A stretch of DNA of 64,000 nt from an uncultured Myxococcales bacterium (GTDB taxonomy: Bacteria > Myxococcota_A > UBA9042). This document shows, in pieces, positions 5,412 through 52,866 of this stretch. The position numbers and the translations under genes are program-made. The notes under the pieces were generated by a model. It made no database searches. It was not told the origin of the DNA and saw only the letters and a program-made list of their open reading frames with translations. The DNA lies in assembly GCA_903919145.1 (NCBI GenBank), contig CAIXGW010000139.1, positions 33,927 to 97,926 of the forward strand. The letters are read 5' to 3'. Position 1 is the first letter of the stretch. Each line of letters begins with the position of its first letter.

Positions 5412-7499
5412 TTATCTGCCCCGCCTGAGGGCGCACCAGTAGAACCCATCGGGACCAAAGCGCGCAAGGGGGTGAGAGGCCAGCCATGCGCCGTTGGCGG
5501 GGCCGATGCGCTCTTCTGCGACCTTGCTAAAGCCGGGCGCTGCCGCCAGAAAAGCTGCCACCACCCCTTCATTTTCGCGGCGCAGCAGGCTGCAGGTCGC
5601 GTAGATCAACCGACCACCGGCTTTGACGTGTTGGGCAGCGCGCAGCAGGATCGCCAGCTGCTGATCGGGAAAGCGCTCGACCCAAGAGCGGTCGATGTGC
5701 CAGCGCAGCTCTGGGTTGCGGCGCAGGGCCCCGGTGCTGCTGCAAGGCGCGTCTACCAGCACCGCATCGGCAGCGGCGACCAGATCCGCCAGGGGTTTCT
5801 CCAGCTTTTCCAGCACCCGGGTCTCTACGTGGACGTGGGCGCGCTCGGCCCGGCGCTTGCACTCGGCCAAGCGATCTGGGTGGGTATCGCAGGCGACCAG
5901 TCGGCCCTTGCCGCCCATGGCCGCGGCCAAAGCCAAGGTCTTGCCGCCGGCTCCCGCGCACCAGTCGATGACCGTCTCGCCGGGTTTGGCGGCGACGGCG
6001 GCGGCAATCCGCTGGCTGCCTTCGTCCTGGATCTCCAGCCGCCCGTCCTGGTAGGGCCGGGTGGCGGTGATCCGCGCCGGCTGAAGGGACCAAAGCGCAT
6101 GGTCCAAGCCGGGGATCGCCAGCGTGGCCAGGCCCTCTTCCAGCAGCTCGGCCGCCACTTGCGGGCGCTGGGCTCGGCTGGAGTGGACGCGCAGCGTCAG
6201 GGGGGCCCGCTGGTTGAGGTAGGCCATGGCAGCCCGCGAGTGGGCCGTCCCCAGCTCCTGGTCCAGCACCTGCACCAAGTCTGGGTGAAAGCCCAGCTGC
6301 ATGGCGGTCTTGTGAGGCTCTGGCAGGCTGCGCGCCGCAAAGGCAGCAGCCCGCAGGGCAACGGTCAGCTGCGAAGGCGCCGCCGGCCAGGTCGCAGCCA
6401 CGCCGGGATTGCGCTTGGCCAGGCCGTCAAGCGCGGTGCCCTCGCCCTTTTTCGCGGCGTCGCGCGGCTGGCCCGTGGCATCCAAGTCCCCCAGGGTCAA
6501 CAGGGCCGCCAGGCCGGCCATTTTGGAGGGCAAAGCCCTTGGATCTTGGGCAGTCTTGGGTGGAGGAGTGCCGCGCAGGGCCTGCACCGCCAGCGCCAAG
6601 TGATCCAAGCGGCGCAGGGCGTACCAGTGCAGCTCAGCAACAGCCTGGCGCTCTTTGCTGCCGAGCTGCGGATGCAAGCCCAGCGCCTGCTCCAGCGCTT
6701 GGTCGGCGTAGCGCAGTTCCTGGTCCAAAGACCGGCGCAGGGCTTCGCCCAGGGTCAGGATTCCCACTGGCCGCAGGTAAAGGGGCTTCTTCTCTTCCGC
6801 TGGGTCCGGGCGCAGCTGCAGGTAGGCCGCCAACCACGCCATGGCGCGTCCGCGGTGGCTGACGGCGTGCTTGGCGTGGGCGTCTGCTTCGGCGAAAGTC
6901 GCGCCCAGGTCATCGCTCAGAAATAGCGGGTCATAGCCAAAGCCGCCTTCGCCGCGCTCTTCCTTGAGCATCTGCCCGCGGGTCTGGCCAGCAAAGGCGC
7001 GCCACGGCAAGCCGCCCTCGCCGCGGCCGCACCCCGGGCCCTCCGCCAGCGGGCCGGCGAGGACCAAGGTGCACTCAAACCAAGCCGACCTATCGTCCGC
7101 CGTGGCCAGATCCCCTAGGAGTTTTGCCCGATTCAGGGCATCGACGCCGCTGCGATCGCGGTCAGGCGCGGCACCAGCCCAGCGGGCGCTGCGCACCCCT
7201 GGCCGGCCCTGGAGAGCGGTGACGCACAAGCCAGAGTCGTCCGCCAGTACGCTGGTGGTCAGGTCCCCGGCGGCGCGCAGGTGGCTGAGGGCCGAAAGGG
7301 CCTTCTTCAGGCTGTTGGCAAGGAAGGTGTCGCCATTTTCTTCTACCTCTGGCAGCGGCGTGCGCTTGGGGGCGGCCCACTGCGCTGGGCTGATCACCTC
7401 GACGCCAATGTCGAGGCACAGGGCGGTTAGCTCATCGATTTTTTTGCCGTTGCCGCTGGCAAGCAGCAGGCGTGGACGGGCAGGGGCTGGCGAGCTCAT
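5412..7499 (-). CDS. Fusion protein: N-terminal Ham1/RdgB-type non-canonical purine NTP pyrophosphatase (~240 aa) + C-terminal RsmB/Sun-type 16S rRNA m5C methyltransferase (NusB-like + NOL1/NOP2/Sun MTase)
   Basis: N-terminus LLLASGNGKKIDEL ... FGYDPLFLSDDLGATFAE...KHAVSHRGRA is the Ham1 signature. C-terminal half has the SAM-MTase motif VIDWCAGAGGKT, catalytic VLVDAPCSSTGALRRNPE and GGRLIYATCSL (RsmB). One continuous 695 aa ORF. Its ATG at 7499 overlaps the S8 protease stop (ATGA). Confidence 0.75.
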   Translation of the reverse strand: MSSPAPARPRLLLASGNGKKIDELTALCLDIGVEVISPAQWAAPKRTPLPEVEENGDTFLANSLKKALSALSHLRAAGDLTTSVLADDSGLCVTALQGRPGVRSARWAGAAPDRDRSGVDALNRAKLLGDLATADDRSAWFECTLVLAGPLAEGPGCGRGEGGLPWRAFAGQTRGQMLKEERGEGGFGYDPLFLSDDLGATFAEADAHAKHAVSHRGRAMAWLAAYLQLRPDPAEEKKPLYLRPVGILTLGEALRRSLDQELRYADQALEQALGLHPQLGSKERQAVAELHWYALRRLDHLALAVQALRGTPPPKTAQDPRALPSKMAGLAALLTLGDLDATGQPRDAAKKGEGTALDGLAKRNPGVAATWPAAPSQLTVALRAAAFAARSLPEPHKTAMQLGFHPDLVQVLDQELGTAHSRAAMAYLNQRAPLTLRVHSSRAQRPQVAAELLEEGLATLAIPGLDHALWSLQPARITATRPYQDGRLEIQDEGSQRIAAAVAAKPGETVIDWCAGAGGKTLALAAAMGGKGRLVACDTHPDRLAECKRRAERAHVHVETRVLEKLEKPLADLVAAADAVLVDAPCSSTGALRRNPELRWHIDRSWVERFPDQQLAILLRAAQHVKAGGRLIYATCSLLRRENEGVVAAFLAAAPGFSKVAEERIGPANGAWLASHPLARFGPDGFYWCALRRGR

Positions 7500-16421: not shown

Positions 16422-17381
16422 CTATTGCCACAGGCGCGCGCCAATCAGCCAGCTGCTGAGGTCGACGTCCTCTACCCAAAAACCTTCATATCCCAGGTAA
16501 AACTCTACCTGATCGACCACTGCGCCTACACTGCCCCGGGCGGTAGTGACCCAGGCACCGCCCAGCGTGCCGGCATCGCCCTGCAGCGACACGACCAGCG
16601 GCCGCATCGGGTACAGGTCCAGCCCGTACAGCAGATGCCAGCCGCGGTGGCTCTGGTCGCCACCGGGCATCCAGCGGGTGCCAAGGCCCGTCCGAAACTG
16701 CGCGTACTCACTTTGGGCAAATAGCACCGACACGGCGGCGCTGCCGATCCACAGCTGCTCGCGGCTGCCATTTGGGTTGCGCTCTTGGTAGCCGCGCAGC
16801 TCGGCGCCAAGCTCAAAGCGGTGGGCCCCGGACCACAGCACACCGACGGCGCCGCGCTGCAGAGACAGATCGGCCGCGCCGCCCTCCAGGTATAGCCGCA
16901 AGGCGGAAGCCTGGCCCAACAGCCGGCGGCCAGCTTGACCAGGGTCGCCCGGGTGCCCCCCAGAGCCGCCAGGCCCCGGTGGCGTGACCCCGGCGATGCG
17001 CAGATAACCCTGGATGCCATCGATGTACGGTGCCGCAGGGAAGGCCAATTGGCGCTCCCAGTCGTCGGCCATTCCGTGGCCGGGCAGGGTCCACGGCGAC
17101 AGCAGCCACCACCACCAATTGTCGTACAGACCCAGCGAGCCGCCGGTCCAACCTGCCGAACCAGAGCGAGAACCGCTTGAACGGCTCGACGAACTGCTGG
17201 ACGAACTGCCCGAAGATCTGCGGCTGCTGGAGCCACTGCGGACTGCCGACTTGGCCCCAGAGAGCCTTCCGGCAAACGCGGGCTGCGCAGGCAGGGCTGC
17301 CAGGACCACCGCGACCGCCAGTAGCCACGACCAGTGCCTGCGGGGGCTTGAGGGGCGCTGGATCGACGCTGAGCCTGCCAT
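16422..17381 (-). CDS. Hypothetical secreted protein with Ser-rich low-complexity linker
   Basis: ATG at 17381 preceded by AAGGTGG. Signal peptide MAGSASIQRPSSPRRHWSWLLAVAVVLAALPAQPAFA|G, then an SSSRRSSGSSSSSSSSRSSGSRSGS linker and a beta-rich C-terminal domain ending ...ARLWQ. An alternative-frame Arg-rich ORF (16526-17611) is rejected. Confidence 0.5.
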   Translation of the reverse strand: MAGSASIQRPSSPRRHWSWLLAVAVVLAALPAQPAFAGRLSGAKSAVRSGSSSRRSSGSSSSSSSSRSSGSRSGSAGWTGGSLGLYDNWWWWLLSPWTLPGHGMADDWERQLAFPAAPYIDGIQGYLRIAGVTPPGPGGSGGHPGDPGQAGRRLLGQASALRLYLEGGAADLSLQRGAVGVLWSGAHRFELGAELRGYQERNPNGSREQLWIGSAAVSVLFAQSEYAQFRTGLGTRWMPGGDQSHRGWHLLYGLDLYPMRPLVVSLQGDAGTLGGAWVTTARGSVGAVVDQVEFYLGYEGFWVEDVDLSSWLIGARLWQ

Positions 17382-17526
17382 GAAGCCACCTTTTGAAGCC
17401 ACCATGGCCCCAAGCAAACTACAACGTCCGGACCGCGTCTGCCATTCGCTCTGGAGGTCCTGCTGGCGGATTCCTTGACCGCAGCGGCTGGCGCCCTATC
17501 CTCGCCGCCGCTCGACCGAGGTCGCC

Positions 17527-18555
17527 ATGCCAAATCTTGCCCCGCCCGACTCTCTGCAACGCGACACCCAGCCCGACCTGCTGATCGCGGCGCCAGAGCT
17601 GCCGTCCGCACCGCCCCTTGCGCCCCAGCCGCCTGTGGGAGCTCCAGAGCTGCGCATGGTGGACCTGCGCGACCTGCGACCGGATCCCAACCAACCCCGC
17701 AAGTACTTTGGTGAAAAGGACCTAAAGGAGCTGGCGGCGTCGATCCGCAGCGTTGGGCTCATCCAGCCGATTGCAGTGCGGCCATCCTTTGCTGGCACCT
17801 ACACCATTGTGGCGGGCGAGCGACGCTTCCGGGCCTACCAGTGGCTGGCGGCTACCTTTCCTGAGTTTCAGCAGATTGCCGCGATTGTTCAGGACCGCAA
17901 CGACGCCGACAGTGCGCTGGCGGCCCTGATTGAGAACGTGGTCAGAGAAGACCTCAACCCGATCGAGCGGGCTGAGGCCTTGCGCGAGCTCAAAAAGCGC
18001 ATGAACGCCACCTGGGAGGGCGTGGCAGAGCGGGTGGGCATCAGCGTGCGCCATGTGCACTTTCTGACAGGAATGCTTAAGCTCAATGCGGATTTCCGCC
18101 AGGCTCTGAGCGATCAAAGCATGACCGAGAAGCACGCCCGCGCCCTGCGCAAGCTGGCCGGCGATCCCAAGGGCGCCTGGCAGTTGTTTGAGTACTTCAA
18201 GGCCCATCCGCAGCTGACCGGCGACGAGGCGATTGCCCTGGCGGCGGCGATGGGCAAGCACCCGGGTACTGCGCCCGAGGCCGCCCAAGCCCTTCTGCAG
18301 CAAGGCAAGATTGCTCCGCCCAAGCCGCGCGCGCCCAGGCTGCCTGCGTCCGATGGCAAGCCGGCGATAGACAGCCAGGCGATGGCCCAGGCGCTGCAGG
18401 GTTTGACCGCGTTCTTGGATGCCGCCACCGCCGTGGTGCCTACCGACCTGGACGTGCAGCAGCAGGCGCGCCTGCGCTTGACCGCAGAGCAGGCCCAGCA
18501 GCAGCTAGCAAGCCTGCTGGCGGCGCTGCCCTTGCAGAAGGTCTCTGAGGGCTAA
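17527..18555 (+). CDS. Orphan ParB-like protein (ParB/Srx N-terminal domain + HTH), no adjacent parA
   Basis: After a Pro-rich N-terminus comes the ParB-box region ...GLIQPIAVRPSFAGTYTIVAGERRFRAYQWL and the arginine-patch GERRFRA, then an HTH-like region GVAERVGISVRHVHFLTGMLKL. GAGG SD 8 nt upstream of ATG 17527. Confidence 0.7.
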   Translation: MPNLAPPDSLQRDTQPDLLIAAPELPSAPPLAPQPPVGAPELRMVDLRDLRPDPNQPRKYFGEKDLKELAASIRSVGLIQPIAVRPSFAGTYTIVAGERRFRAYQWLAATFPEFQQIAAIVQDRNDADSALAALIENVVREDLNPIERAEALRELKKRMNATWEGVAERVGISVRHVHFLTGMLKLNADFRQALSDQSMTEKHARALRKLAGDPKGAWQLFEYFKAHPQLTGDEAIALAAAMGKHPGTAPEAAQALLQQGKIAPPKPRAPRLPASDGKPAIDSQAMAQALQGLTAFLDAATAVVPTDLDVQQQARLRLTAEQAQQQLASLLAALPLQKVSEG

Positions 18556-18572
18556 TCCTCAGAATCGGCGCA

Positions 18573-20138
18573 TCAAAATAGCAGCAGATTCTGTGGCGGC
18601 GGTCGATCGACGACCGGGTCGACCGCGCTCAGTACAGCCTCTGCCGTGGCCGGTCCGACCCCCGGCAAGGCCAACAGCAGGGCCTTCTTGGCCGCGGCGT
18701 CCAGCCCCTCAAGCCGATCCAGGACTGCGCCTTCGCCGCCCAGCTGCTGCAGGGCCATCGCACAGTCCGCCAGCCAGGTGGCACGGCGGGCCGGTAGCGG
18801 AATGCCAGCCTGCAGCGCCAGTTGGCGGGTAGACTCGCCGCGCTGTTCGGCCGGCAGCGCCTGCAAGGCGGCACTGCTGAGCAGCTGCCGCGCCTGCGGA
18901 TGGGCCGTCAGGTCGACGCCGCCCAGGTGGCGCAGCAGCGCCGGCCACAACACGCTGGCCAGGGCGGGCTGCGGCTTCTCCGGCGCAGGCTGAGCCAAAG
19001 CGGGAAAGAACTCCTCCAGATCGTCTGCCGGGGGAGCGTCAGGCGCCTCGGGCGCTGGTCCTGCCCAAGGCGCTGAGAACAGGTCCGAGCTGTCGGGCAC
19101 GGCGCTGTCAGGCACGGCGCTGTCAGGCACGGCGTTGTCAGGCACGGCGTTGTCAGGCTCGGCGTTGTCAGGCACGGCGTTGTCAGGCACGGCGTTGTCA
19201 GAGTCGGCGTTGTCAGAGTCGGTGCGGGCTGGGCCCTGGGCGTCGTAGGGTTCAGCGTCTTCGCCTTCTGGAGGGCGGACACCGGGCAACAGCGTCACGC
19301 GCAGCTCGTGGGCCGTAGGAATGACTTCCAGCAGGTCGTTCTGAGCGCGCAGCAGATCGGACAGCGTGCGGTGGCCCAAGGCGCGGTGGCGAAAACCCGG
19401 CATGGCCTGCTGAAGCAAATTGCCAATGGCACCAGTGGTCATGGCACCGCGCTGCCCAAGCATTTCCATCAGCAAAGCGCGAACTTGCTCAATGGTTGGG
19501 GAGCGCGGTGGGGCCTGGTCCGCTGGCCGGGAGTCCGCCGTCAGAGCGCTTGAGCCCTGAGCGTTGGCCGGCTCGGCGCTGGACCTGTCGCTGACTGGCT
19601 TGGTGCCGCCTGATCGGTCGCTGTCTTCGCGGTCGGCAGAGGCGGGCTCGGCAGCTGGGCGGTCTCCGCTGGCCCGGTCGGAGGCGAGCCTGTCGCTCAG
19701 CGACCTGTCAAAGTCCAGGCGCTCGAAACGATCACAGGCGGCGACCAGGGTGTCGGCCACTGACCGGCCCTTGGGGGCCACGCCAATGACGATTTTGCCG
19801 CGCGACCGCAACTTCTGGGCCAGCGGCACAAAATCGGAGTCGCCCGTCGCCAGGACGTAGACTTGCACGCTGGGCGTCAGGCTGAGGAACTCCATGACAT
19901 CGACCACGATCGCGATGTCGGCCGAGTTCTTGCCGCCGGTGCGCAGGATTTGGGTCGGCACGCCCCCGACGTCCAGGGTGGTGTCCCAGTGCTGGCCATA
20001 GCCGCGCCGCCAGTCGCCGTAGACCGCCAGATGGCAGACCCGGCCCTGGGTGGCGCCGAAGTCGGCCACCGAGCGGATGAATTGACCGCCGACATTTTCC
20101 ATGTCAACGAAGATGGCCACCAGGGCTGTGCTGACCAT
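18573..20138 (-). CDS. NYN-domain (LabA/PIN-like RNase fold) protein with OST-HTH/LOTUS-like domain and a (VPDNA)n pentapeptide repeat tract
   Basis: N-terminus IFVDMENV...YGDW...KNSADIAIVVDVMEF...VYVLATGDSDFVPLAQKLRSRGKIVIGV is the NYN signature. Mid-region IEQVRALLMEMLGQRGAMTTGAIGNLLQQ is LOTUS-like. Residues ~300-350: DSDNADSDNAVPDNAVPDNAEPDNAVPDNAVPDSAVPDSAVPDS, encoded by a 15 bp tandem DNA repeat (~19075-19215). Confidence 0.75.
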   Translation of the reverse strand: MVSTALVAIFVDMENVGGQFIRSVADFGATQGRVCHLAVYGDWRRGYGQHWDTTLDVGGVPTQILRTGGKNSADIAIVVDVMEFLSLTPSVQVYVLATGDSDFVPLAQKLRSRGKIVIGVAPKGRSVADTLVAACDRFERLDFDRSLSDRLASDRASGDRPAAEPASADREDSDRSGGTKPVSDRSSAEPANAQGSSALTADSRPADQAPPRSPTIEQVRALLMEMLGQRGAMTTGAIGNLLQQAMPGFRHRALGHRTLSDLLRAQNDLLEVIPTAHELRVTLLPGVRPPEGEDAEPYDAQGPARTDSDNADSDNAVPDNAVPDNAEPDNAVPDNAVPDSAVPDSAVPDSSDLFSAPWAGPAPEAPDAPPADDLEEFFPALAQPAPEKPQPALASVLWPALLRHLGGVDLTAHPQARQLLSSAALQALPAEQRGESTRQLALQAGIPLPARRATWLADCAMALQQLGGEGAVLDRLEGLDAAAKKALLLALPGVGPATAEAVLSAVDPVVDRPPPQNLLLF

Positions 20139-20144
20139 GGCTGG

Positions 20145-20426
20145 CTACACCAGGGCTTCGCGCAGGCGCTTTTCAATCGATCCCTGAAGCTTCTGGGCAT
20201 CGACCCCAGCCAGGCGAGCGGCCATCCCGAGCTCGACCTGCACGTGAACGGCCGTGTCGGTCACGCTGACTTCGCCGCCCACACCAATGCCCTTGATCTT
20301 GGCCTTGGGGCCGGACCACTCCAGCTTGGCGCGGTACTTGGCAAGCATTTCTTCAAACTGGGCCAAACGCTTGACGGCGGCATCGCGACCAAGGGTGTGA
20401 GCCTGCTGGACATTGACTTGGGCCAT
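20145..20426 (-). CDS. Small (93 aa) conserved protein, resembles the ~90 aa 'putative polyhydroxyalkanoic acid system protein' family (from memory, unverified)
   Basis: ATG 20426 preceded by GGAGGAATCG. Sequence MAQVNVQQAHTLGRDAAVKRLAQFEEMLAKYRAKLEWSGPK...GIGVGGEVSVTDTAVHVQVELGMAARLAGVDAQKLQGSIEKRLREAL. Stop TAG lies 6 nt before the NYN gene ATG, so probably co-transcribed. The long ORF-track version (20145-20804) is rejected. Confidence 0.55.
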   Translation of the reverse strand: MAQVNVQQAHTLGRDAAVKRLAQFEEMLAKYRAKLEWSGPKAKIKGIGVGGEVSVTDTAVHVQVELGMAARLAGVDAQKLQGSIEKRLREALV

Positions 20427-20593
20427 CGATTCCTCCGCTGCGTGTGACAACTTGTGTGCAACCGTACTATGTCGCGGCACTAATCTCAATCGACCTTGTA
20501 TCCCATGCGCGCCGGTCCGCACGCCCGTGCTTGCTGTGCGCTCGCCGGGGTGACAGGCTTGCCGGCGGCCATGCTTTGGCCAGGTGGATGGCG

Positions 20594-23017
20594 ATGGCGG
20601 CGAGGCGCGATGAAACCCCGATGCTTCCGGGCCTTGAAGGGCCTGCGCCGCCGCGCCCCAAGCGCACCGCGCCGCAGGCGCCCCAGGCCGCTGCAGCCGG
20701 CCAGCGCTTTGCCGTGATCGCCGACGTGGCGGTGGCGCAGGGGTTGGACGCGTTGAGCTACGGCGTGCCAGAGGCGCTGCTGGCGACCGCCGTGGCCGGT
20801 GCACGGGCCACGGTGCCCCTGCGCGGCAAGCTGGCGGTGGGGCTGATTGTGCAGGTCAGACCAGCAGTTCTTGGTGACCCGCTGCTGGCCAAGCTGCGGC
20901 CGCTGCTGGCGGTGCCCGGCGATTCGCCGCCGCTGCCGGCAGAATTGCTGGAGACCGTGCGGTTTCTGGCGCGCTACTACCACACCCCGCTGGGCTCGGC
21001 CGCGCGGGCCTGTCTGCCGGCGGCGCTGCGCCGCACTGGTGTGGGGGCCGATCGCGCGGCCGACAAGCAAGAACCGTGGGTTGGCGCCACCTGGCTGCGG
21101 CCCTGGCCAGACGATCTGGGCCGCGCTGAGACCCGGGTGCTGCACCGAATCGAAGCCGAAGGCAGCCTGCCGCTAGCGGAATTGCGTCGCAAGTCGCCCC
21201 CAGAGCCGGCGGCACCTGCAGCAGAGGGGGCCGACGCTGTTGCGGCAACCGCTGGGCCCGCCAGGGCCAAGAGCGCTGCGGCGCCCACCGAGCTGCTGCA
21301 AGGGCTTGAGCGCCGCGGGCTGGTCCGGCTGTGGCAGCAGCGGGTCCTGCGCGACCCCCTTGGCATGCGCGAACCCGTCCCCACCGACCAACCGCTGCCG
21401 CTGACGGCCGACCAGGCGGTGGCGGTGTTGGCGCTGCAGCAGGCCATAGAAACGCAGAAATTCTCTGGCTTCTTGCTGCACGGTGTCACCGGATCGGGCA
21501 AGACCGAGGTCTATTTGCAGGCGATCGCCTTGGCACTGGCCCACGGCCGCGGCGCGATTGTGCTGGTACCAGAGATCGCCCTGACCCCGCAGCTGGTCCG
21601 GCGTTTTCGGGCGCGCTTTGGCGATCAGGTGGCGGCCCTGCACTCGGCGATGTCGGAGGGCGAGCGGCTGGACCAGCTTGACCTGGTGCAGGGCGGGCAG
21701 CGGCGCATCGTCATCGGTCCGCGCTCTGCCTTGTTTGCGCCGATGGCCAACGTGGGGGTGCTGGTAGTCGACGAGTGCCATGACGGTTCTTTTAAGCAGC
21801 AGGCAGGGTTGCGCTACCACGCCCGCGACGTGGCCCTGGTGCGGGCGCGCGCGGCCGGCGCGGTGTGCGTCCTGGGCTCAGCGACGCCAGGCTGCGAAGA
21901 GGTAGCGCTGGCCCAAAGCGGACGCTTGACGACGCTGAGCCTGCCGGCAAGAGCGGTGGCGCTGTCGCTGCCGACTGTCAAGGTCATCGACTTGCGCACA
22001 GCCGAGCGACTGCGCGACATCGAGTCCGACCGGCCAAGCATGCTGTCCCACGAGCTGCTGGCGGCCATCTCGGCGACGGTGGCGCGCGGCGAACAGGTCA
22101 TTTTGCTGCACAACCGCCGCGGTTATGCGACGTCGATGGTCTGCGCGGCCTGTGGCACGGCAGTCGAGTGCCCCGAGTGTGCGGTGTCTTTGACCTTGCA
22201 CAAGGGCTCTGGACGCCTGCGCTGCCACTGGTGCGACCTGTCTTTGCCCATGGGGATGAGCTGCCCGACCTGTGGGGCGCGCAACCTGCTGGGCGTCGGC
22301 GCGGGGACGGAGCGCATTGAAGTGACTCTGAGCGCCGAGCTGCCCCACGTGAAGATGGCCCGGTTTGACCGCGACACGGCGTCGGGGCAGCGGCTGCACG
22401 AGACCTTGGGGCGATTTCGCAACCGCGAGCTCGACCTGCTGGTGGGCACCCAGATGCTGGCCAAAGGCCATGATTTTCCAGCAGTGACCTTGGTTGGGGT
22501 GATCCTGGCAGAGGCCGGCCTGGGCATCGCCGATTTCCGGGCTGCAGAGCGGACTTTTCAGCTGCTGACCCAGGTGGCCGGGCGGGCAGGGCGCGGCCAT
22601 CGGCCCGGCACGGTGCTGGTGCAGACGCATCAGCCAGACCACGTGGCCATTCGCTACGCCTTGAACCAAGATCACCAAGGGTTTACCGCTCAGGAACTCG
22701 ACAGCCGCCGCCGATCGGCCTACCCGCCCTATGCCCACCTTGCGCTCCTGGAAGCCCGCCACGCTGACGACCAGCTGGCTCGGGCGGCGATGCAGCATGC
22801 GGTGGCGGCTTTGGAGAGCTGGGGCGCCCAGGTGCGCGGCCCGGTGATGGCTCAGATGGCCAGGGTCAGAAATATTTGGAGGATCCACGCGCTGTTGCGC
22901 AGCGACGACCGGCCGCCCCTTCACCAGTGGCTGACGCGTCTGCGCGCCGAAGTGCTGCCGCTGCTGCCGGCCGCCGTCGAATTCACCATCGACGTCGATC
23001 CAGCCAGTTTTGGCTAG
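20594..23017 (+). CDS. priA: Primosomal protein N' (PriA helicase)
   Basis: Walker A LLHGVTGSGKTEVY, DEAH-type VVDECHDGSF, Cys-rich zinc-binding region CAACGTAVECPECAVSLTLHKGSGRLRCHWCDLSLPMGMSCPTCGARNL, C-terminal winged helix. Start at ATG 20594 (AGGTGG SD 6 nt upstream); 20588 is also possible. The 5' extension of the ORF track to 20444 is rejected. Confidence 0.9.
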   Translation: MAARRDETPMLPGLEGPAPPRPKRTAPQAPQAAAAGQRFAVIADVAVAQGLDALSYGVPEALLATAVAGARATVPLRGKLAVGLIVQVRPAVLGDPLLAKLRPLLAVPGDSPPLPAELLETVRFLARYYHTPLGSAARACLPAALRRTGVGADRAADKQEPWVGATWLRPWPDDLGRAETRVLHRIEAEGSLPLAELRRKSPPEPAAPAAEGADAVAATAGPARAKSAAAPTELLQGLERRGLVRLWQQRVLRDPLGMREPVPTDQPLPLTADQAVAVLALQQAIETQKFSGFLLHGVTGSGKTEVYLQAIALALAHGRGAIVLVPEIALTPQLVRRFRARFGDQVAALHSAMSEGERLDQLDLVQGGQRRIVIGPRSALFAPMANVGVLVVDECHDGSFKQQAGLRYHARDVALVRARAAGAVCVLGSATPGCEEVALAQSGRLTTLSLPARAVALSLPTVKVIDLRTAERLRDIESDRPSMLSHELLAAISATVARGEQVILLHNRRGYATSMVCAACGTAVECPECAVSLTLHKGSGRLRCHWCDLSLPMGMSCPTCGARNLLGVGAGTERIEVTLSAELPHVKMARFDRDTASGQRLHETLGRFRNRELDLLVGTQMLAKGHDFPAVTLVGVILAEAGLGIADFRAAERTFQLLTQVAGRAGRGHRPGTVLVQTHQPDHVAIRYALNQDHQGFTAQELDSRRRSAYPPYAHLALLEARHADDQLARAAMQHAVAALESWGAQVRGPVMAQMARVRNIWRIHALLRSDDRPPLHQWLTRLRAEVLPLLPAAVEFTIDVDPASFG

Positions 23018-37387: not shown

Positions 37388-37416
37388 TTGAAATCTGCGG
37401 GTGCAAAAGCTATTTT
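37388..37416 (+). promoter_or_regulatory. Sigma-70-like promoter candidate TTGAAA-17 nt-TATTTT upstream of the giant Cys-rich lipoprotein gene
   Basis: CTTGAAATCTGCGGGTGCAAAAGCTATTTTG. -35 matches TTGACA at 5/6, 17 nt spacer, -10 matches 4/6. Lies ~100 nt upstream of ATG 37518. Sequence-only call. Confidence 0.25.
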
Positions 37417-37517
37417 GGGCGCTGGCTGCCGCTTTCCCAGTGCAAAGAGTGCTTGGCTTTTTTGGCCTGCGCACCTGGATCGCCGGGCGAGGCGGCGATG
37501 CCCAAGGGAGCAAGGCC

Positions 37518-40500
37518 ATGAGTGTCGCGCGTCGGCAAGAGGGCCCCCTAGCAGAGGGGCACAGGATGGGGGCGACGCGGGCCGGCCCTGTGCAGCGGCG
37601 ACCTTGGGCTTGGCTGGCGCTGTCCTTGGCCCTCTGCGCGGCGATCGCTGGGGGGTGTGAAGGCAAGTTCCTGACAGCCGAGCAGATCGACCAGCGCTTG
37701 GATGCGGCTGGGACGGCCGCCGATGGCGCGGATGTCGCTGGATTGGAGGGCGACGCCGACTCGCAGGCGGACACGCTGGCGGCTGCGGATTCAGACGGCG
37801 CCGGCTCTTCCGACTCAGCTGGCGAGACCGCCAGCGGCTGTGTCAGCGCTGCCGACTGCAGCGATGGCAACCCTTGCACCACCGATGCGTGCCCTGCGTC
37901 CGGAACCTGCGAGCACACTGCCATCGCCGACGGCGGCACCTGTGACGACGGCAATGCCTGCACCGCCGGCGAATTCTGCGCCGCTGGCAAGTGCGGCGGT
38001 GGCACCGTCAAACACTGCGACGACAACAACGTCTGTACCGCCGACGCCTGCCTGCCCGCCAAGGGCTGCACCCACACCGACGACGACGGCGCGACCTGCG
38101 ATGACGCCGACCCCTGCACAGTGGGCGACAAGTGTCTGGCCGGCCAATGCCAAGCCCAGCCCAAAGACTGCGGCAATGACGCGTGCACCACTGCCAAGTG
38201 CGTCAACGGCGTGTGCAAGTCCGCCAGCAAGGTCGACGGCTTGGACTGCGACGACAAAGATGGCTGCACCAGCGGCGACAAGTGCCAAGACGGCCTGTGC
38301 GTCGGCGCCCAAAAGACCCTCTGTGACGACAAAAATCCATGCTCAATAGATAGTTGTGTGGGCACCCTGGGCTGCCAGTTTGCGCTGGTCGATGGGCCGT
38401 GCAGCGACGGCGATGCTTGCACCCTGGGCGACACCTGTGCTGGCGGGACCTGCGCAGCCGGGGCGACCAAGGCCTGCGATGACGGCAATCCCTGCACCCA
38501 AGACCTGTGCCAGCCAGTGGATGGCAGCTGTGCCGTGACGCCGACCGCCGGCCCCTGCAGCGACGGCAATGCCTGCACCACCGGCGATGGCTGCGCGGCC
38601 GGCGCGTGCTCTGCGGGCAAGCTGGCGGGCTGCGATGACAACAATCCGTGTACGGTCGACAGCTGCGACGCCAATTCTGGCTCCTGCACGGCGCTTTTCA
38701 ACACCGCCGGCTGCGAGGACGGCGATGCGTGTACCGTGGGCGACAGCTGCAGCGGCGGCGAGTGCAAGGCCGGTGCGGTCAAGCCCTGCGCCGACAGCGA
38801 CACCTGCACCAGCGACGCTTGCGACGCCAAGACTGGCGCGTGCCAACACAGCAAAATCAATGGCTGCGGCGAGTTTTGCGCCAGCGTGGCCGACTGCAAG
38901 GCCGGCAACGTGTGCAATCAAGTGGCATGCCTGAGCGGCAAGTGCGCGTTCCTGCCCACCACGGCCATCTGCGACGATGGCGATGCTTGCACGCTGGCCG
39001 ATCAGTGCGGCGCCGGAGCCTGCCAGCCCGGCAGCCCCAAGAATTGCGACGACGGCAAGCCCTGCACCACCGACAGCTGCCAGGCCGGCACCTGCAACCA
39101 CGCCAACAACAGCGACCCGTGCTCGGACAACAACGCATGCACCCAGGGCGATCTCTGCAAAGGCGGCGCCTGCGGCTCAGGCAAGGCCAAGGCCTGCGAC
39201 GACGGCAATCCCTGCACCAGCGACAGCTGCGACGTCAGCAGTGGCGACTGTCAGGCAACGGCCAACAGCGAAGCCTGCGACGACAAAAACCCCTGCACCA
39301 GCACCGACAGCTGCCAGCTGGGCCAGTGCGCCGCCGGCACCCCAGTGAACTGCGACGACGGCAACCTCTGCACCCACGACAGCTGCGACGGCAAGACCGG
39401 CACCTGCGTCCACGCCAACAACAGCGCGCCGTGCAGCGACGGCAATGCCTGCTCCGAGGGCGACGTCTGTGCCCAGGGCAGCTGCGCCAGCGGGGCCGCC
39501 AAGGTGTGCCAGGACGGCAATGCCTGCACCAACGATGCCTGCGATCCGCTCAGCGCCGCCTGCCTTTACACCCCCAACGCCGCGCCCTGCAGCGACGGCG
39601 ACGCCTGCACCATCGGCGACAGCTGTGCGGCAAGCGGCTGCAAAGCGGGGGCCGCCAAGGTCTGCGCCGACAGCGACACCTGCACCAACGACACCTGCGA
39701 TTCTGCTAGCGGCAACTGCGTTTACAAGCCGATTACCGGCTGCGGCGGCAACTGCACCAAGCCCAGCGACTGCGGCGACGCCAACCCATGCACCGACGAC
39801 TCCTGCGTCAGCGGCAAGTGCGCCTTTCCAGCCAATACGGCCGCGTGCAGTGACGGCAACGCCTGTACCGTCAGTGACCTGTGCAGCGGCGGAACCTGCA
39901 AGGCGGGCGCGACCAAGGCCTGCAGCGACGGCAATCCGTGCACGGCCGACGCCTGTGACAACAAGAGCGGCGACTGCGGCCACACCCCCAATGTCGCCGG
40001 CTGCGATGACGGCAACGCCTGCACGGCGGGAGACGTCTGCGGCGGCGGTGCGTGCAAGGCTGGCAAGGCCACCGACTGCAGCGACGGCAATCCGTGCACC
40101 GACGACGCCTGCGATCCCACCAGCGGCAACTGCAAGTCCAGCTCCAACACAGCGACTTGTACCGACGGCAATGCCTGCACCAGCGGCGACGTCTGTGCCG
40201 GTGGCACCTGCAAGCCCGGCGCGGCCAAGGGTTGCGATGACGGCAACCCCTGCACCAATGACGCCTGCGACCCGCTGAGCGGCGTTTGCTCCAAGGTGGC
40301 CAACTCTGCCCAATGCAGCGACGCCAATGACTGCACCCAAGGCGATTTGTGCTCCGCTGGCGTGTGCAAGCCCGGGGCGGCCAAGGCCTGCGACGACAAG
40401 AACGTCTGTACCCAAGACAGCTGCGACGCCGCCAGCGGAGCGTGCGTGGCCGCGCCCAACGCCGCGCCCTGCGACGACGGCAGCAAGTGCACCCAGGCCG

Positions 40501-43500
40501 ACAAGTGCACAGCCGGCAGCTGCCAGCCGGGCACCGCCAAAGTCTGCGACGACGGCCAGGCTTGCACGATCGACAGCTGCAGCCCAGGCGACGGCAGCTG
40601 CGTGTTTGCACCCAAGATCGGCTGTGGCGGCAACTGCAACACCGCCAGCGACTGCAGCGATGGCAACGGCTGCACCGACGACCAGTGCGCTGCCGGCAAG
40701 TGCGCGTTTCCCAACAACACTGCCAGCTGCACGGACAACAACCCGTGCACCCTGCAAGATGCCTGCAGCGGCGGCACCTGCAAGGCCGGCAGCGCCAAGA
40801 CCTGTGACGACAGCAATCCCTGCACCAATGACAGCTGCAATGCCACCACCGGCCTGTGCAATTATGTAGGAAATACAGCAGGGTGTTCGGACAGCGACGC
40901 TTGCACCGCCCCGGACCTGTGCGCCAACAGCAATTGCACACCGGGGGCCAAGAAGACCTGCACAGACAACAACCCGTGCACCAATGATAGCTGCAATCCC
41001 GCCACCGGCGCTTGCGTCAACGCCAACAACAGCGCCGTATGCAACGACAACAACGCCTGCACGTCTGGCGACATCTGCAGCGGCGGCAGCTGCGCTGGCC
41101 CCGTGACCGTGGGCTGCGACGACGGCAAGCTGTGCACAACGGACAGCTGCGACCCGGCCGGCGGCTGCAAGACCGTCAACAACAGCTCGCCGTGCAATGA
41201 CAACAACCTCTGCACCACCGGCGACACCTGCTCGGGCGGCGGCTGCGTGGGCGGGTCCGCACCGGTGTGCAATGACAACAACGCGTGCACCACCGATAGC
41301 TGTGCTGCGGCCATTGGATGCAAGTTCGACGCCAATACCAACGCTTGCGAAGACGGCAACAAGTGCACCCTCAACGACGTCTGCAGCGCTGGAACCTGCA
41401 GCGCCGGCTCGGGCAAGACCTGCACGGACAGCGACACCTGCACGACCGACAGCTGCGATCCAGCCAGCGGATCCTGCGTCTACAAGCCCATCATCGGCTG
41501 CGGCGGCTACTGCGACAGCAGCGCCAACTGCAATGACGGCAACCTCTGCACCGACGACGCCTGCGTGGCCGGAAAGTGCACCAACACTGCCAATACCGCT
41601 AATTGCACTGACAATGACGCCTGCACCACCGGCGACAAGTGCAGCGGCGCAGCCTGCAAGCCCACCGGCACGCTGACCTGCAGCGACGGCAACGTCTGCA
41701 CCAGCGACAGCTGTGTCAAGGCCACTGGTTGCAGCTTTGTCAACAATAGTGCCAGCTGCACAGACAACAATGCCTGTACTACCGGCGACTTGTGCTCGGG
41801 CGGTGCCTGCCTGGGCGGCGCCCCGCCCAGCTGCGAGGACAACAACGGCTGCACGACGGACAGCTGCGACAAGGGCAAGGGCTGCCAGAACCTGGCCAAC
41901 AACGCGCCCTGCGACGATGGCGACGCCTGCACCGCCAATGAGCAATGCGCCAAAGGCAATTGCGTGGCCACCACCGACGTGCTGTGCACTGACAACAACG
42001 CGTGCACCAACGACTCCTGCGACAAAGCCCAGGGCTGCGTGTTCACCAACGTCAGCAACGGCGCCGGCTGCGACGACGGCAAGCCCTGCTCGCTGGGCGA
42101 CAGCTGCCTGGCGGGGCAGTGCAAGGCTGGAGTGGCGGTGTGGGTAGACAGGCTGGCCGGCTCTGTTCCAGCCCCCAACAGCGGCGCTGGCGGCGGCAGC
42201 TATGCGGAGGGCACCGGCGAAAAGGCGGCCTTCAACACCCCCATGGGCATCGCGTTTCACCCAGGGGTCAATGTCCTGGTCGTGGCTGATACCTATAACC
42301 ACCTGATCCGAAAGGTGACGTTGCAGGGAAAGGTCAGCGATATCGCGGGTGTAGCCGGCAAGGGCAGCTATGCCGATGGCCAGGGCAGCAATGCGGCGTT
42401 CAACCTGCCAATGGGCGTCGCCGTGAGACCAGATGGGCAGATCCTGGTCGCTGACACGGGCAACCACCTGATCCGCGCAGTGATGATCGATGGCACCGTT
42501 ACCACTGTAGCTGGTACAGGCAGCGGCGGCAGTCAGGATGGCAGCGTCAAGTCGGCCACCTTCGTAGGGCCGCGCGGCGTGGCGGTCAGCGTGGGAGGTG
42601 TTGCTGCCATCGCGGACACGGGCAATCACATGATTCGCCTGATAAAGCTTAGTGAGGGGCTGGTGGTGACGCTGGCCGGATCTCCCTCAGCTGGGTTCAA
42701 AGACGGCATGGGCAGCGCCGCGCAGTTCAACACTCCCGTTGGCGTGGCCTTTGACACAGCGGGTCGCCTCTACGTGGCGGACCAAAGCAATCACCGGATT
42801 CGCCAAGTCCTGCCCAGCGGACAGGTCTTGACGGTAGCCGGCGATGGCACGGCGGGCATGGCCGACAGCACCAACCCCCTGTTGGCCAAGTTCAACTTCC
42901 CGGCCGGGGTGCTTGTGGCGCCCACGGGGCTGTTTGTGGCTGACAGCTTCAATGGCCGCATCCGCCGCGGCGCAGCCAATGGCGTGGCCACGCTGGCCGG
43001 CTCAGGCACTGGGGCCGTCGATGGGCTCGCGGCCAGCGCCACCTTCTACCTGCCCCAGAGCCTTGCGGCCGATAGCGGCGGCTACCTCTACGTCGCCGAT
43101 GTCTACAACCACTTGATCCGGCGGGTGCGCGACTCCAGTGGGGGGTGCACCATCAATGGCCAGTGCGTCGTGGGCGGCTGGTGGAAGCCGGGAGCCAGCT
43201 GCTACCGCTGCGAGGCAGCCTCCTCTGCCACCGCCTGGACGGGCAAGCCCAACGGCGCGCCGTGTGATGACGGGCTGCTCTGCACCGCTGAAGACCTCTG
43301 CAACTACAAGTCGGGGCCGGTGGCGTGCAACGGCACGGTGGTCACCTGCAACGACGGCAATGCGTGCACCAACGACTCTTGCAGTGCGGCCACCGGGGCG
43401 TGCCAGAACCTGGCCGGCAGCGGCGCCTGCGACGACGGCAGCCCCTGCACCTATCCCGACACGTGCAGCGGCGGCAGCTGCGGGGCCGGCACCCAAAATG

Positions 43501-52621: not shown

Positions 52622-52788
52622 GGAAACCTGCTTGAAAAAGGGACGGCGAGCGCTACGGCAGCCAAGCAGGGCAGCATGCACAGCGGGTACCGATGGGTCA
52701 ATTCGATTCACCACCGGTCGGTCACGCCAATTGCCTCCCGGATCGCCTGACGCAGAGGGGCAGGATGCGCGACCCTGCCCAACGCTTT

Positions 52789-52798
52789 GGCAATTGCC
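52789..52798. promoter_or_regulatory. Perfect 10 bp palindrome GGCAATTGCC 69 nt upstream of zwf (plus a 9/10 copy GCCAATTGCC at 52726-52735 and a GGGCAGG-N9-CCTGCCC hairpin between them); candidate operator
   Basis: Read directly from sequence. The identical 10-mer recurs 58 nt upstream of glgP (60797-60806). See findings. Confidence 0.3.
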
Positions 52799-52866
52799 GG
52801 GGGCGGCCTGGGGTGCATTTACTCGCGCGGGTCCATGCGGTACGGTCAGATGCACAGGAGGCCCGC

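What the first reader, a model, noticed from the sequence alone, without database searches (positions are those of the whole stretch)
17527..20426. Orphan ParB-like gene convergent with a small-protein + NYN-LOTUS RNase-fold operon; NYN protein carries a (VPDNA)9 pentapeptide tract encoded by a 15 bp DNA tandem repeat
A ParB/Srx-domain protein with the CTP-binding-type GERRFRA motif but no partner parA sits tail-to-tail (17 nt apart) with an operon of a 93 aa conserved small protein and a NYN (PIN-like nuclease) + LOTUS (OST-HTH, RNA-binding) protein. ParB-like nucleases/CTPases and NYN RNases both recur in phage-defence and toxin-type systems. The 15 bp repeat GGCACGGCGTTGTCA x ~9 (19075-19215) inside the NYN gene is a slippage-prone coding repeat that could vary the linker length.
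Basis: partly seen in the sequence, partly recalled or inferred. Interest (0 to 1): 0.5.

Follow-up and report, generated by a model that had tools for sequence, protein, structure and literature searches.

The report
ParB paralogue paired with DNA-tethered RNase
In an uncultured Myxococcota chromosome, a ParA-independent ParB-type DNA clamp gene is consistently paired with a two-gene operon encoding a small protein and a MARF1-like RNase that carries an extra DNA-binding domain; it looks like a lineage-specific housekeeping or regulatory module rather than a phage-defence system.

Summary
A ParB_N+HTH_ParB gene (17527-18555, GERRFRA, no parA) lies 17 nt tail-to-tail with an operon encoding a 93-aa PHA_gran_rgn protein and a 521-aa NYN+LOTUS protein. 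That protein contains nine 15-nt coding repeats (19086-19220). A metagenomic copy that is otherwise 100% identical has eight units.

New findings:
- The ParB belongs to a Myxococcota-specific clade in which all 20 members lack the ParA-binding motif.
- The trio recurs in five lineages with differing flanks.
- Relatives whose NYN protein lacks the C-terminal domain also lack the adjacent ParB, and this joint loss happened at least twice.
- The PHA_gran_rgn-NYN pair is the older core. In relatives it sits among a sigma54 activator and an OmpR-type two-component pair.

I found no support for a defence or toxin role: no PADLOC hit beyond a weak NYN match, no viral relatives, and a housekeeping chromosomal context.

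My reading is a DNA-tethered MARF1-like RNase coupled to a dedicated ParB-type CTP clamp. The mechanism is inferred. I rate it a new variant of known kinds, of moderate interest.

The parts
17475..17502 (+). Sigma70-like promoter candidate for the ParB-like gene (TTGACC-16-TATCCT), about 25 nt upstream of the ATG
   Evidence: This is the only promoter-like site in 17300-20700. Both hexamers and the GAGGT Shine-Dalgarno sequence are conserved in L001 while the spacer differs.
17527..18555 (+). Orphan ParB-family gene (342 aa) with ParB_N CTPase fold, HTH_ParB and a clade-specific C-terminal region. Boxes I, II and III are intact and there is no ParA-binding motif.
   Evidence: Domain and family hits are. 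The box motifs and motif scan are, and the tree is.
18556..18572 (.). 17-nt spacer between the convergent stop codons, with no terminator-like hairpin
   Evidence: Sequence. Zero terminator-like sites in 17300-20700. The equivalent spacers in relatives are 2-67 nt.
18573..20138 (-). Gene for the 521-aa NYN + LOTUS + HhH-GPD-like protein (long form)
19719..20120 (-). NYN (PIN-like) nuclease domain, residues 7-140. D12, N15, D42, D74, D100 and D102 are invariant.
   Evidence: Pfam NYN E 2.9e-23. Invariant columns are listed. The residues were matched by motif position to MARF1 D178/N181/D215/D246/D272 (PMC6217404); this correspondence is my inference. PDB 2qip (VPA0982) also matches.
19314..19487 (-). 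LOTUS/OST-HTH winged-helix domain, residues 218-275
   Evidence: Pfam OST-HTH at 34.7 bits against a cutoff of 23.8. PDB 2kpm, the NE0665 LOTUS domain, matches at E 3.8e-4.
19086..19220 (-). Nine in-frame 15-nt tandem units (residues 307-351) in the disordered linker between the LOTUS domain and the C-terminal domain
   Evidence: TRF result and unit-by-unit read. P0121 lacks exactly unit 6 and is otherwise identical.
18609..18950 (-). C-terminal all-helical domain (residues about 397-510) with the HhH-GPD glycosylase-type fold, containing the HhH motif LPGVGPATA
18576..18596 (-). Disordered C-terminal tail PQNLLLF, invariant in the closest clade. It is a candidate short linear motif that partly matches beta-clamp-binding hexapeptides.
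   Evidence: Alignment. pLDDT is below 60 here. Motif definitions are taken from bioRxiv 10.64898/2026.05.27.728225.
20145..20426 (-). 93-aa PHA_gran_rgn protein, the first gene of the operon, ending 6 nt before the NYN start codon
   Evidence: It is always 93 aa and always immediately upstream.
20461..20489 (-). Sigma70-like promoter candidate for the PHA_gran_rgn-NYN operon (TTGAGA-17-TACGGT on the minus strand)
   Evidence: Both hexamers are conserved at the same spacing in window and L001. L013 keeps the -35 hexamer, the 17-nt spacing and a TAnnnT -10 (TAGTCT). Coordinates were read.

Best explanation
This is a chromosomal three-gene module restricted to one clade of uncultured Myxococcota.

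Its older core is a tightly coupled operon. It encodes a 93-aa PHA_gran_rgn protein and a MARF1-like endoribonuclease made of a NYN nuclease domain (all catalytic Asp residues intact) and a LOTUS RNA-binding domain.

In the form seen here, the RNase also carries a length-variable disordered linker, which includes the 15-nt repeat. After the linker comes a C-terminal domain derived from the HhH-GPD glycosylase fold. That domain has kept the helix-hairpin-helix DNA-binding half and lost the catalytic half.

This long form is always encoded tail-to-tail with a dedicated ParB-family protein. That ParB has all the CTP-switch motifs but no ParA-binding peptide.

The most likely working model is as follows:
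- The ParB paralogue loads onto DNA as a CTP-dependent clamp at a site not yet identified.
- The RNase is held at the DNA or nucleoid through its HhH domain, and possibly through ParB itself.
- There it cleaves G-rich or structured nascent RNA.
- The small protein acts as its stoichiometric partner or regulator.

Shown: the gene anatomy, the domains, the intact active sites, the co-conservation and the repeat polymorphism. Inferred: DNA tethering, any ParB-RNase cooperation, the RNA substrate, and the role of the small protein.
For: **Domains**
- The catalytic residues are invariant across 13 homologues. By motif position they correspond to the MARF1 residues shown essential by mutagenesis.
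- Bacterial LOTUS domains bind G4 or G-rich RNA (PMC7498356).

**C-terminal domain**
- The model is confident.
- The protein ends 15 residues after the HhH motif, so the second lobe and the catalytic Asp position are absent.

**Conservation of the trio**
- It occurs in window, L001, L012, L107/L108 and L109/L110, with differing flanks.
- The ParBs next to NYN genes form one clade in an NJ tree without bootstrap support.
- None of the four sister-clade ParBs examined is next to a NYN gene.

**Joint loss**
- Short-form NYN proteins of 295-352 aa lack the C-terminal domain. Their loci (L014, L111/L112, L009) have no adjacent ParB.
- L009 is sister to the full-trio locus L012 at 97% bootstrap.
- The short sigma54-activator-linked clade is separate at 99%.
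- The two features were therefore lost together at least twice.

**ParB**
- 0 of 20 clade members carry the ParA-binding motif, against 84 of 101 more distant ParBs.

**Translational coupling**
- The small gene and the NYN gene are separated by gaps ranging from -1 to 6 nt in all loci.
Against: - No physical interaction or activity was tested.
- PHA_gran_rgn-NYN pairs exist without an adjacent ParB (L014, L111), so the RNase core does not require it.
- I found no parS or shared palindrome near the genes, so the ParB loading site is unknown.
- All long-form loci come from a narrow set of metagenome contigs, and several are cut at the contig end.
- Deep nodes of the NJ trees are poorly resolved.
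- NYN domains are normally RNases, and a truncated HhH-GPD domain might bind something other than DNA.
- Whether these genomes also carry a canonical parAB could not be checked.
Confidence: 0.45

Rival explanations
1. The genes are independent neighbours. The ParB paralogue is a stand-alone CTP-switch DNA-binding protein (a transcription or nucleoid factor like KorB, VirB or Noc). The PHA_gran_rgn-NYN operon is a separate RNA-turnover unit under signal-transduction control. Their adjacency is inherited, not functional.
For: - The PHA_gran_rgn-NYN pair works without an adjacent ParB in L014 and L111. There it sits in the order sigma54 activator -> PHA_gran_rgn -> NYN -> response regulator -> histidine kinase.
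- Sister-clade ParBs sit in unrelated contexts, one of them next to a ParA.
- The genes are convergent, so they are not co-transcribed, and each has its own promoter-like site.
- Orphan ParBs are common (bioRxiv 10.1101/2025.10.10.680097).
- Bacterial NYN-LOTUS proteins were described as stand-alone enzymes with no conserved neighbourhood (PMC2848206).
Against: - Adjacency is kept in five lineages while the flanks differ. ParB identity across these drops to about 50%, and NYN identity drops to about 48% in L012.
- Loss of the ParB neighbour coincides with loss of the C-terminal DNA-binding-type domain in two separate branches.
- ParB lies exactly between the NYN gene and the orthologous response regulator / histidine kinase pair in L109, and close to that response regulator in L107.
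Confidence: 0.3
2. It is a defence or toxin-antitoxin system. The NYN (PIN-like) RNase is a toxin or effector, the small upstream protein is its antitoxin or inhibitor, and ParB is a DNA-sensing or regulatory partner.
For: - The layout of a small upstream gene translationally coupled to a PIN-superfamily nuclease resembles VapBC-type modules.
- There is a weak PADLOC match to a LabA-like NYN nuclease, E 0.0028.
- ParB-fold and NYN domains both occur in conflict systems (PMC3482391 and PMC10853773, listed).
Against: - There is no significant PADLOC hit for any of the three proteins.
- No relatives occur in 2.9 million viral contigs, and plasmid matches are only distant.
- The window has core-genome neighbours, no integrase or transposase identified among the annotated ORFs, and uniform GC.
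- The distribution is vertical and clade-restricted, with conserved synteny.
- The small protein is a PHA_gran_rgn member with an alpha-beta4-alpha fold, not a typical DNA-binding antitoxin.
- In relatives it is embedded in a sigma54-activator and two-component locus.
Confidence: 0.1
3. It is a replication- or repair-associated nuclease. The NYN domain, which belongs to the FEN/PIN-like 5' nuclease superfamily, acts on RNA-DNA or flap structures at forks. It is targeted there by the HhH domain and by a C-terminal beta-clamp-binding tail, which would explain the position next to priA.
For: - The tail PQNLLLF is invariant after a variable linker in eight close homologues and is disordered in the model.
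- It shares Q1, L4 and F6 with the E. coli Pol III alpha hexapeptide QVELEF.
- priA is adjacent, or within 3.5 kb, in window, L001, L013 and L014.
- An SNF2 helicase is adjacent in L012.
- The C-terminal fold comes from DNA-repair glycosylases.
Against: - Position 2 of the motif is Asn rather than an aliphatic residue.
- The tail is absent from the L012, L107 and L109 orthologues.
- priA adjacency is absent in L012, L107 and L109.
- LOTUS domains bind RNA and do not preferentially bind DNA G4.
- The glycosylase catalytic part is missing.
Confidence: 0.1

Closest known systems
Bacterial MARF1-like (LK-nuclease/DUF88) NYN + OST-HTH/LOTUS proteins; eukaryotic MARF1/Limkain-b1
   Same: It has an N-terminal NYN domain with the four catalytic Asp residues plus Asn, followed by a LOTUS winged-helix domain. 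This is the stereotyped bacterial architecture described in PMC2848206.
   Different: It has an added C-terminal HhH-GPD-like domain after a repeat-bearing linker. It also has a conserved gene neighbourhood (PHA_gran_rgn, ParB, sigma54 activator, response regulator / histidine kinase), whereas the bacterial family was reported to have none. By single-sequence search, the C-terminal domain has only one other hit at or below E 1e-3 (a 483-aa protein with no Pfam family) among 1.84 billion representatives, apart from its own cluster.
Orphan ParB-family CTP switches (Noc, KorB, VirB; 'orphan ParB' class of bioRxiv 10.1101/2025.10.10.680097)
   Same: It has the ParB_N CTPase fold with Boxes I-III, a ParB-type HTH, no ParA-binding motif and no parA neighbour. 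The best PDB sequence matches are Spo0J, Noc and ParB.
   Different: It scores below the Noc cutoff (152 against 315 bits). No ParB C-terminal dimerisation domain (PF23552) was detected. It has a clade-specific insertion after the HTH. Its binding site is unknown. It is uniquely paired with an RNase gene.
PHA_gran_rgn (PF09650 / TIGR02610), putative polyhydroxyalkanoate-system protein
   Same: It scores above both curated cutoffs over its full length.
   Different: No PHA synthase, phasin or depolymerase was found among the window ORFs scanned against Pfam, which do not cover every ORF. Here the gene is translationally coupled to a nuclease gene instead.
HhH-GPD DNA glycosylases (Endonuclease III/NTHL1, MutY, AlkA, OGG1)
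   Different: It is only about 110 residues long. The second lobe and the catalytic Asp about 20 residues after the HhH are missing because the protein ends there. Pfam HhH-GPD gives no hit. It is therefore predicted to be non-catalytic.
VapBC-type type II toxin-antitoxin modules
   Same: A small upstream gene is tightly coupled to a PIN-superfamily nuclease gene.
   Different: It is not mobile or patchily distributed, the nuclease is a multi-domain 521-aa protein, and the upstream protein has no recognisable antitoxin DNA-binding fold.

Membership tests
ParB/Spo0J family (TIGR00180; PF02195 + PF17762) | ParB_N CTPase fold and ParB HTH scoring above the curated cutoffs | tested here: met
   PF02195 at 85.9 bits (cutoff 26.3), PF17762 at 54 bits (cutoff 22.6), TIGR00180 at 125 bits (cutoff 58.45).
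ParB/Spo0J family | CTP-binding and hydrolysis motifs: Box I, Box II GERRxRA, Box III ENxxRxDL | tested here: met
   PNQPR at residue 54, GERRFRA at 97, ENVVREDL at 136. G97, E98, R99, R100, R102, E136 and N137 are invariant.
Canonical chromosomal ParB (ParABS) | N-terminal ParA-binding motif [LIFVM]G[KR]G[LIFVM] | tested here: not met
   The motif is absent from the window protein and from all 19 closest homologues. It is present in 84 of 101 more distant hits.
Canonical chromosomal ParB (ParABS) | Adjacent parA and nearby parS sites | tested here: not met
   Neither flanking gene is a ParA. The parS consensus gives one 3-mismatch match in 64 kb, against 1.56 expected by chance.
Noc (TIGR04285) | Score above the curated cutoff | tested here: not met
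   151.7 bits against a cutoff of 315.
PadC (Myxococcus ParB/Srx-domain adaptor) | Bactofilin-binding region plus a ParB/Srx domain without a ParB HTH (from my own knowledge of the family) | not tested
   No PadC sequence was compared. The window protein has a full ParB HTH, which argues against PadC.
NYN / LabA-like nucleases (PF01936) | Domain match plus the conserved acidic active site | tested here: met
   83.4 bits against a cutoff of 24.2. D12, N15, D42, D74, D100 and D102 are invariant. They were matched by motif position to MARF1 D178/N181/D215/D246/D272.
MARF1-like NYN + LOTUS architecture | NYN domain followed by at least one LOTUS/OST-HTH domain | tested here: met
   OST-HTH at 34.7 bits against a cutoff of 23.8, residues 218-275. 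PDB 2kpm LOTUS matches at E 3.8e-4.
MARF1-like NYN + LOTUS architecture | Mg2+-dependent ssRNA cleavage that depends on the LOTUS domain | not testable with these tools
   This requires biochemistry.
PHA_gran_rgn (PF09650/TIGR02610) | Full-length match above the cutoffs | tested here: met
   55.1 bits against 26.6, and 48.1 bits against 40.25.
PHA_gran_rgn (PF09650/TIGR02610) | Location among PHA synthesis or granule genes, which is the basis of the family's name | tested here: not met
   No PHA gene was found among the window ORFs scanned against Pfam (not every ORF was scanned) or in loci L001, L012, L014, L107 and L111.
HhH-GPD glycosylase superfamily | Two-lobe fold with the HhH motif followed by a Gly/Pro-rich loop and a catalytic Asp | tested here: not met
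Known anti-phage defence systems (PADLOC-DB v2) | A significant match of the component proteins to system models | tested here: not met
   There were no hits for ParB or the small protein, and NYN reached only E 0.0028 at 15 bits.
Beta-clamp-binding motif proteins | Q-phi-x-L-F or Q-phi-x-L-x-L/F peptide in a disordered, often terminal, region | tested here: inconclusive
   The tail QNLLLF is C-terminal, disordered and invariant in the close clade. However, position 2 is Asn, and the tail is missing in the L012, L107 and L109 orthologues.
Contingency (phase-variable) repeat loci | Repeat copy-number changes that shift the reading frame or promoter spacing | tested here: not met
   The unit is 15 nt, so changes stay in frame. 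The 9-unit and 8-unit alleles encode proteins that are otherwise identical.

The most novel reading that the evidence does not exclude
A ParB-family CTP-dependent DNA clamp has been recruited as the dedicated partner of an RNase. It would position a MARF1-like NYN-LOTUS nuclease, which carries its own glycosylase-derived HhH DNA-binding domain, on the chromosome. There the nuclease would degrade nascent, G-rich/G4 or R-loop RNA. That would be the first functional link between ParB/CTP switches and RNA degradation, and the first conserved partner set for bacterial MARF1-like enzymes.
Probability: 0.2. Interest if true: 0.7.

Novelty: new variant of a known kind. Interest (0 to 1): 0.42.

Why it matters
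Bacterial NYN-LOTUS (MARF1-like) proteins are widespread but uncharacterised. They were reported to have no conserved gene partners. Orphan ParB CTP switches are now known to be common, but only a few have an assigned function. This locus offers a concrete, testable pairing: an RNase that gained a DNA-binding domain together with a dedicated ParB paralogue and a small partner protein. If the link is functional, it would extend ParB/CTP-switch biology to RNA metabolism at the chromosome. It would also give a way into the function of bacterial MARF1-like enzymes. If the link is not functional, the locus is still a clean example of an orphan ParB clade and of a recently expanded, polymorphic coding repeat in a disordered linker.

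Tried and rejected
**Searches that found nothing useful**
- parS search (TGTTNCACGTGNAACA, up to 3 mismatches): one hit against 1.56 expected, so there is no centromere here.
- Short inverted repeats around the genes and palindromes shared across five trio loci: only homologous coding sequence matched, so there is no candidate ParB site.
- Sigma54 promoter (GG-N10-GC) upstream of the small gene in nine loci: no convincing match. In the loci where a sigma54 activator is the upstream gene, the small gene starts about 35-45 nt after that gene's stop codon, so read-through transcription is more likely there.
- PADLOC, PHROGs (generic ParB hits only), viral contigs and plasmids: no support for a mobile or defence origin.
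- Intrinsic terminator between the convergent genes: none found.

**Analyses with limited power**
- Sequence search of PDB with the C-terminal domain found only generic HhH matches.
- The word-indexed homologue search for the small protein returned only 3 hits.
- The exhaustive search with the C-terminal domain returned only its own cluster and one weak 483-aa hit with no Pfam family.
- The afdb50 fold library was unavailable.
- Two NYN look-ups returned gene tables but no DNA.

**Could not be checked**
- Whether the same genomes also carry a canonical parAB.

Full report
**1. What is there**

The window is a 67% GC chromosome segment with uniform composition. The closest named relatives are Myxococcota metagenome-assembled genomes.

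Genes across the window are housekeeping or envelope genes. They include RecN, Der, Era, a Ham1/RsmB ORF, a subtilase, multihaem cytochromes and an OmpA/TSP3 protein. Further along are PriA, alpha-2-macroglobulin with PBP1C, G6PD, 6PGD and glycogen phosphorylase.

Within this setting lie three genes:
- **ParB-like gene, 17527-18555 (+), 342 aa.** Pfam finds ParB_N and HTH_ParB, and it passes TIGR00180.
- **NYN gene, 18573-20138 (-), 521 aa.** It lies 17 nt away, tail-to-tail. Pfam finds NYN, OST-HTH/LOTUS and an HhH motif.
- **Small gene, 20145-20426 (-), 93 aa.** It ends 6 nt before the NYN start codon and passes both the Pfam and TIGRFAM PHA_gran_rgn cutoffs.

No terminator-like hairpin separates the convergent genes. 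Each transcription unit has a sigma70-like promoter candidate whose hexamers are conserved in relatives while the spacer drifts.

**2. The repeat**

TRF finds a 15-nt period, 8.4 copies and 93% matches at 19091-19216. Read in frame, there are nine units at 19086-19220 encoding DSDNA x2, VPDNA x2, EPDNA, VPDNA, VPDSA x2 and VPDSS. These are residues 307-351.

A metagenomic protein, P0121, is identical at all other 516 positions and lacks exactly unit 6. Copy number therefore does vary between near-identical strains.

The tract lies in a disordered linker between the LOTUS domain and the C-terminal domain. That linker is unalignable and very variable in length among orthologues, which range from 437 to 547 aa in total. 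The L109 orthologue carries a long (EP)n run at the same place. Changes are in frame. This is ordinary linker-length polymorphism, not phase variation.

**3. The ParB**

Boxes I, II (GERRFRA) and III are intact. The best structural relatives by sequence are Spo0J, Noc and ParB. The protein therefore has the sequence motifs of a CTP-switch DNA clamp.

It is not Noc, scoring 152 bits against a cutoff of 315.

It lacks the ParA-binding peptide [LIFVM]G[KR]G[LIFVM]. So do all 19 of its closest homologues, whereas 84 of 101 more distant ParBs have it (motif definition from bioRxiv 10.1101/2025.10.10.680097). No parA is adjacent, and the window has no parS.

It belongs to a clade found only in uncultured Myxococcota-type metagenome sequences.

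**4. The NYN protein**

D12, N15, D42, D74, D100 and D102 are invariant in 13 homologues. By their motif positions (FVDxEN, YxDW, SADI, GDSDF) I matched them to the MARF1 residues D178, N181, D215, D246 and D272. Mutating those MARF1 Asp residues abolishes RNA cleavage (PMC6217404). This residue correspondence is my inference.

NYN plus LOTUS is the stereotyped bacterial 'MARF1-like' architecture (PMC2848206). Of the two bacterial LOTUS domains tested, one (TP0894) bound G-quadruplex RNA and the other (NE0665) did not (PMC7498356).

The new element is the C-terminal part, residues about 397-510:
- AlphaFold2 models it confidently, with pLDDT about 90.
- Foldseek independently ranks OGG1 and EndoIII first.
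- Only the HhH-bearing lobe is present. The chain ends 15 residues after the HhH, before the position of the catalytic Asp.

I therefore read it as a DNA-binding module rather than a glycosylase. This is an inference.

At the sequence level the domain is very rare. Apart from its own cluster, only one weak 483-aa hit (no Pfam family) scores at or below E 1e-3 among 1.84 billion representatives.

The last seven residues, PQNLLLF, are invariant in the closest clade and disordered in the model. They partly resemble hexapeptide clamp-binding motifs. However, they are absent in more distant orthologues.

**5. Is the trio a unit?**

Close relatives such as L001 share the entire region, which is uninformative. 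More distant loci are informative:

| Locus | ParB identity | Arrangement | Flanks |
|---|---|---|---|
| L012 | 57% | small gene, NYN, convergent ParB | an SNF2 helicase instead of PriA |
| L107/L108 | 61% | same trio, stop codons 2 nt apart | unrelated on both sides |
| L109/L110 | 53% | ParB convergent with a gene cut by the contig end | a response regulator / histidine kinase pair upstream of ParB |

In L109/L110 the cut gene's product is the long-form C-terminus.

The ParBs next to NYN genes form one clade in an NJ tree without bootstrap support. Its sister group contains one ParA-linked member and three orphans in other contexts, none of them near a NYN gene.

Conversely, the NYN proteins in L014 and L111/L112 are short (295-317 aa) and lack the C-terminal domain. 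They lie in the order sigma54 activator -> small gene -> NYN -> OmpR-type response regulator -> histidine kinase, with no ParB. L015 has the same sigma54-activator-to-small-gene arrangement, but its NYN gene is cut by the contig end.

The same response regulator (69% identical) flanks ParB in L109 and lies close to it in L107. In L109 ParB sits exactly between the NYN gene and that two-component pair.

L009 has a 352-aa NYN-LOTUS protein with no small gene, no ParB and no C-terminal domain. It is nevertheless sister to the full-trio locus L012 at 97% bootstrap, and the short sigma54-activator-linked clade is separate at 99%.

So ParB adjacency and the C-terminal domain changed together at least twice. 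The small-gene/NYN pair is the older and more widespread core. It is present in all eight inner-clade loci where the upstream DNA is available.

**6. Interpretation**

The best-supported reading is a lineage-specific chromosomal module. A MARF1-like RNase and its small partner have, in one form, acquired a DNA-binding domain and a dedicated ParA-independent ParB clamp. This suggests RNA cleavage at or near DNA.

The cooperation, the substrate and the role of the small protein are all inferred. The model of the small protein is only moderately confident (pLDDT 67), and its fold matches are weak.

The rivals are set out in their own section: mere inherited adjacency, a toxin-antitoxin or defence system, and a clamp-associated replication or repair nuclease. 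The defence reading has the least support.

**7. Novelty and score**

Orphan ParBs and bacterial NYN-LOTUS proteins are each known. The following were not found in the literature I searched:
- the truncated HhH-GPD-type domain fused to NYN-LOTUS;
- the coupling to a PHA_gran_rgn protein outside any PHA context;
- the co-varying ParB partner.

I rate this a new variant of known kinds, with interest 0.42. It gives a specific, testable hypothesis, but it rests on a handful of metagenome contigs and no functional data.

Noticed in passing
window 37401-44876 (+) and 47111-52855 (-): There are two giant repeat proteins. One is 2491 aa with 13 Dicty_CTDC Cys-rich repeats plus NHL. The other is 1914 aa with 9 MopE Cu-binding motifs, 5 TSP3 repeats and FG-GAP. 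Both coincide with extreme AT skew of opposite sign.
   Followed up: partly
window 16422-17417 (-): This 331-aa Ser-rich ORF directly upstream of ParB has no Pfam hit and is 71% conserved in L001. A 12-nt tandem repeat at 17179-17221 lies in its poly-Ser tract.
   Followed up: partly
window 5412-7499 (-): A single 695-aa ORF combines a Ham1 (ITP pyrophosphatase) domain with an RsmB/F rRNA methyltransferase domain. I did not check whether it is a real fusion or two adjacent genes.
   Followed up: no
L014 7750-13198; L111 7873-11658; L015 4299-7283: In relatives, the small-gene/NYN pair follows an FHA-GAF sigma54 activator with only about 35-45 nt between them. It is followed by an OmpR-type response regulator and a histidine kinase. 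This suggests signal-regulated expression of the RNase.
   Followed up: partly
L109 5615-6322 (-): The orthologous NYN protein carries a long (EP)n / PEPEPE low-complexity run at the linker position where the window has the 15-nt repeat. Repeat expansion in this linker therefore recurs across lineages.
   Followed up: partly
window 20588 (approx.) versus the ORF start at 20444: The PriA ORF as listed starts at a GTG at 20444 and overlaps the promoter-like site of the small gene. Homologues align only from residue 30-51 onward. The real PriA start is probably near the Met codons around 20588, which leaves a divergent intergenic region of about 160 nt.
   Followed up: partly
window 19490-19718 (-), residues 141-216 of the NYN protein: The first linker, between the NYN and LOTUS domains, is also low-complexity (SDR/DRS-rich: DRSLSDRLASDRASGDR...DREDSDRSGG...SDRSS). 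It is unalignable among orthologues.
   Followed up: no
L007 and L111 (both from sample SRR24750920): An orphan sister-clade ParB (P0018) and a short-form small-gene/NYN locus occur on separate contigs of the same metagenome sample. I could not determine whether they come from one genome.
   Followed up: no
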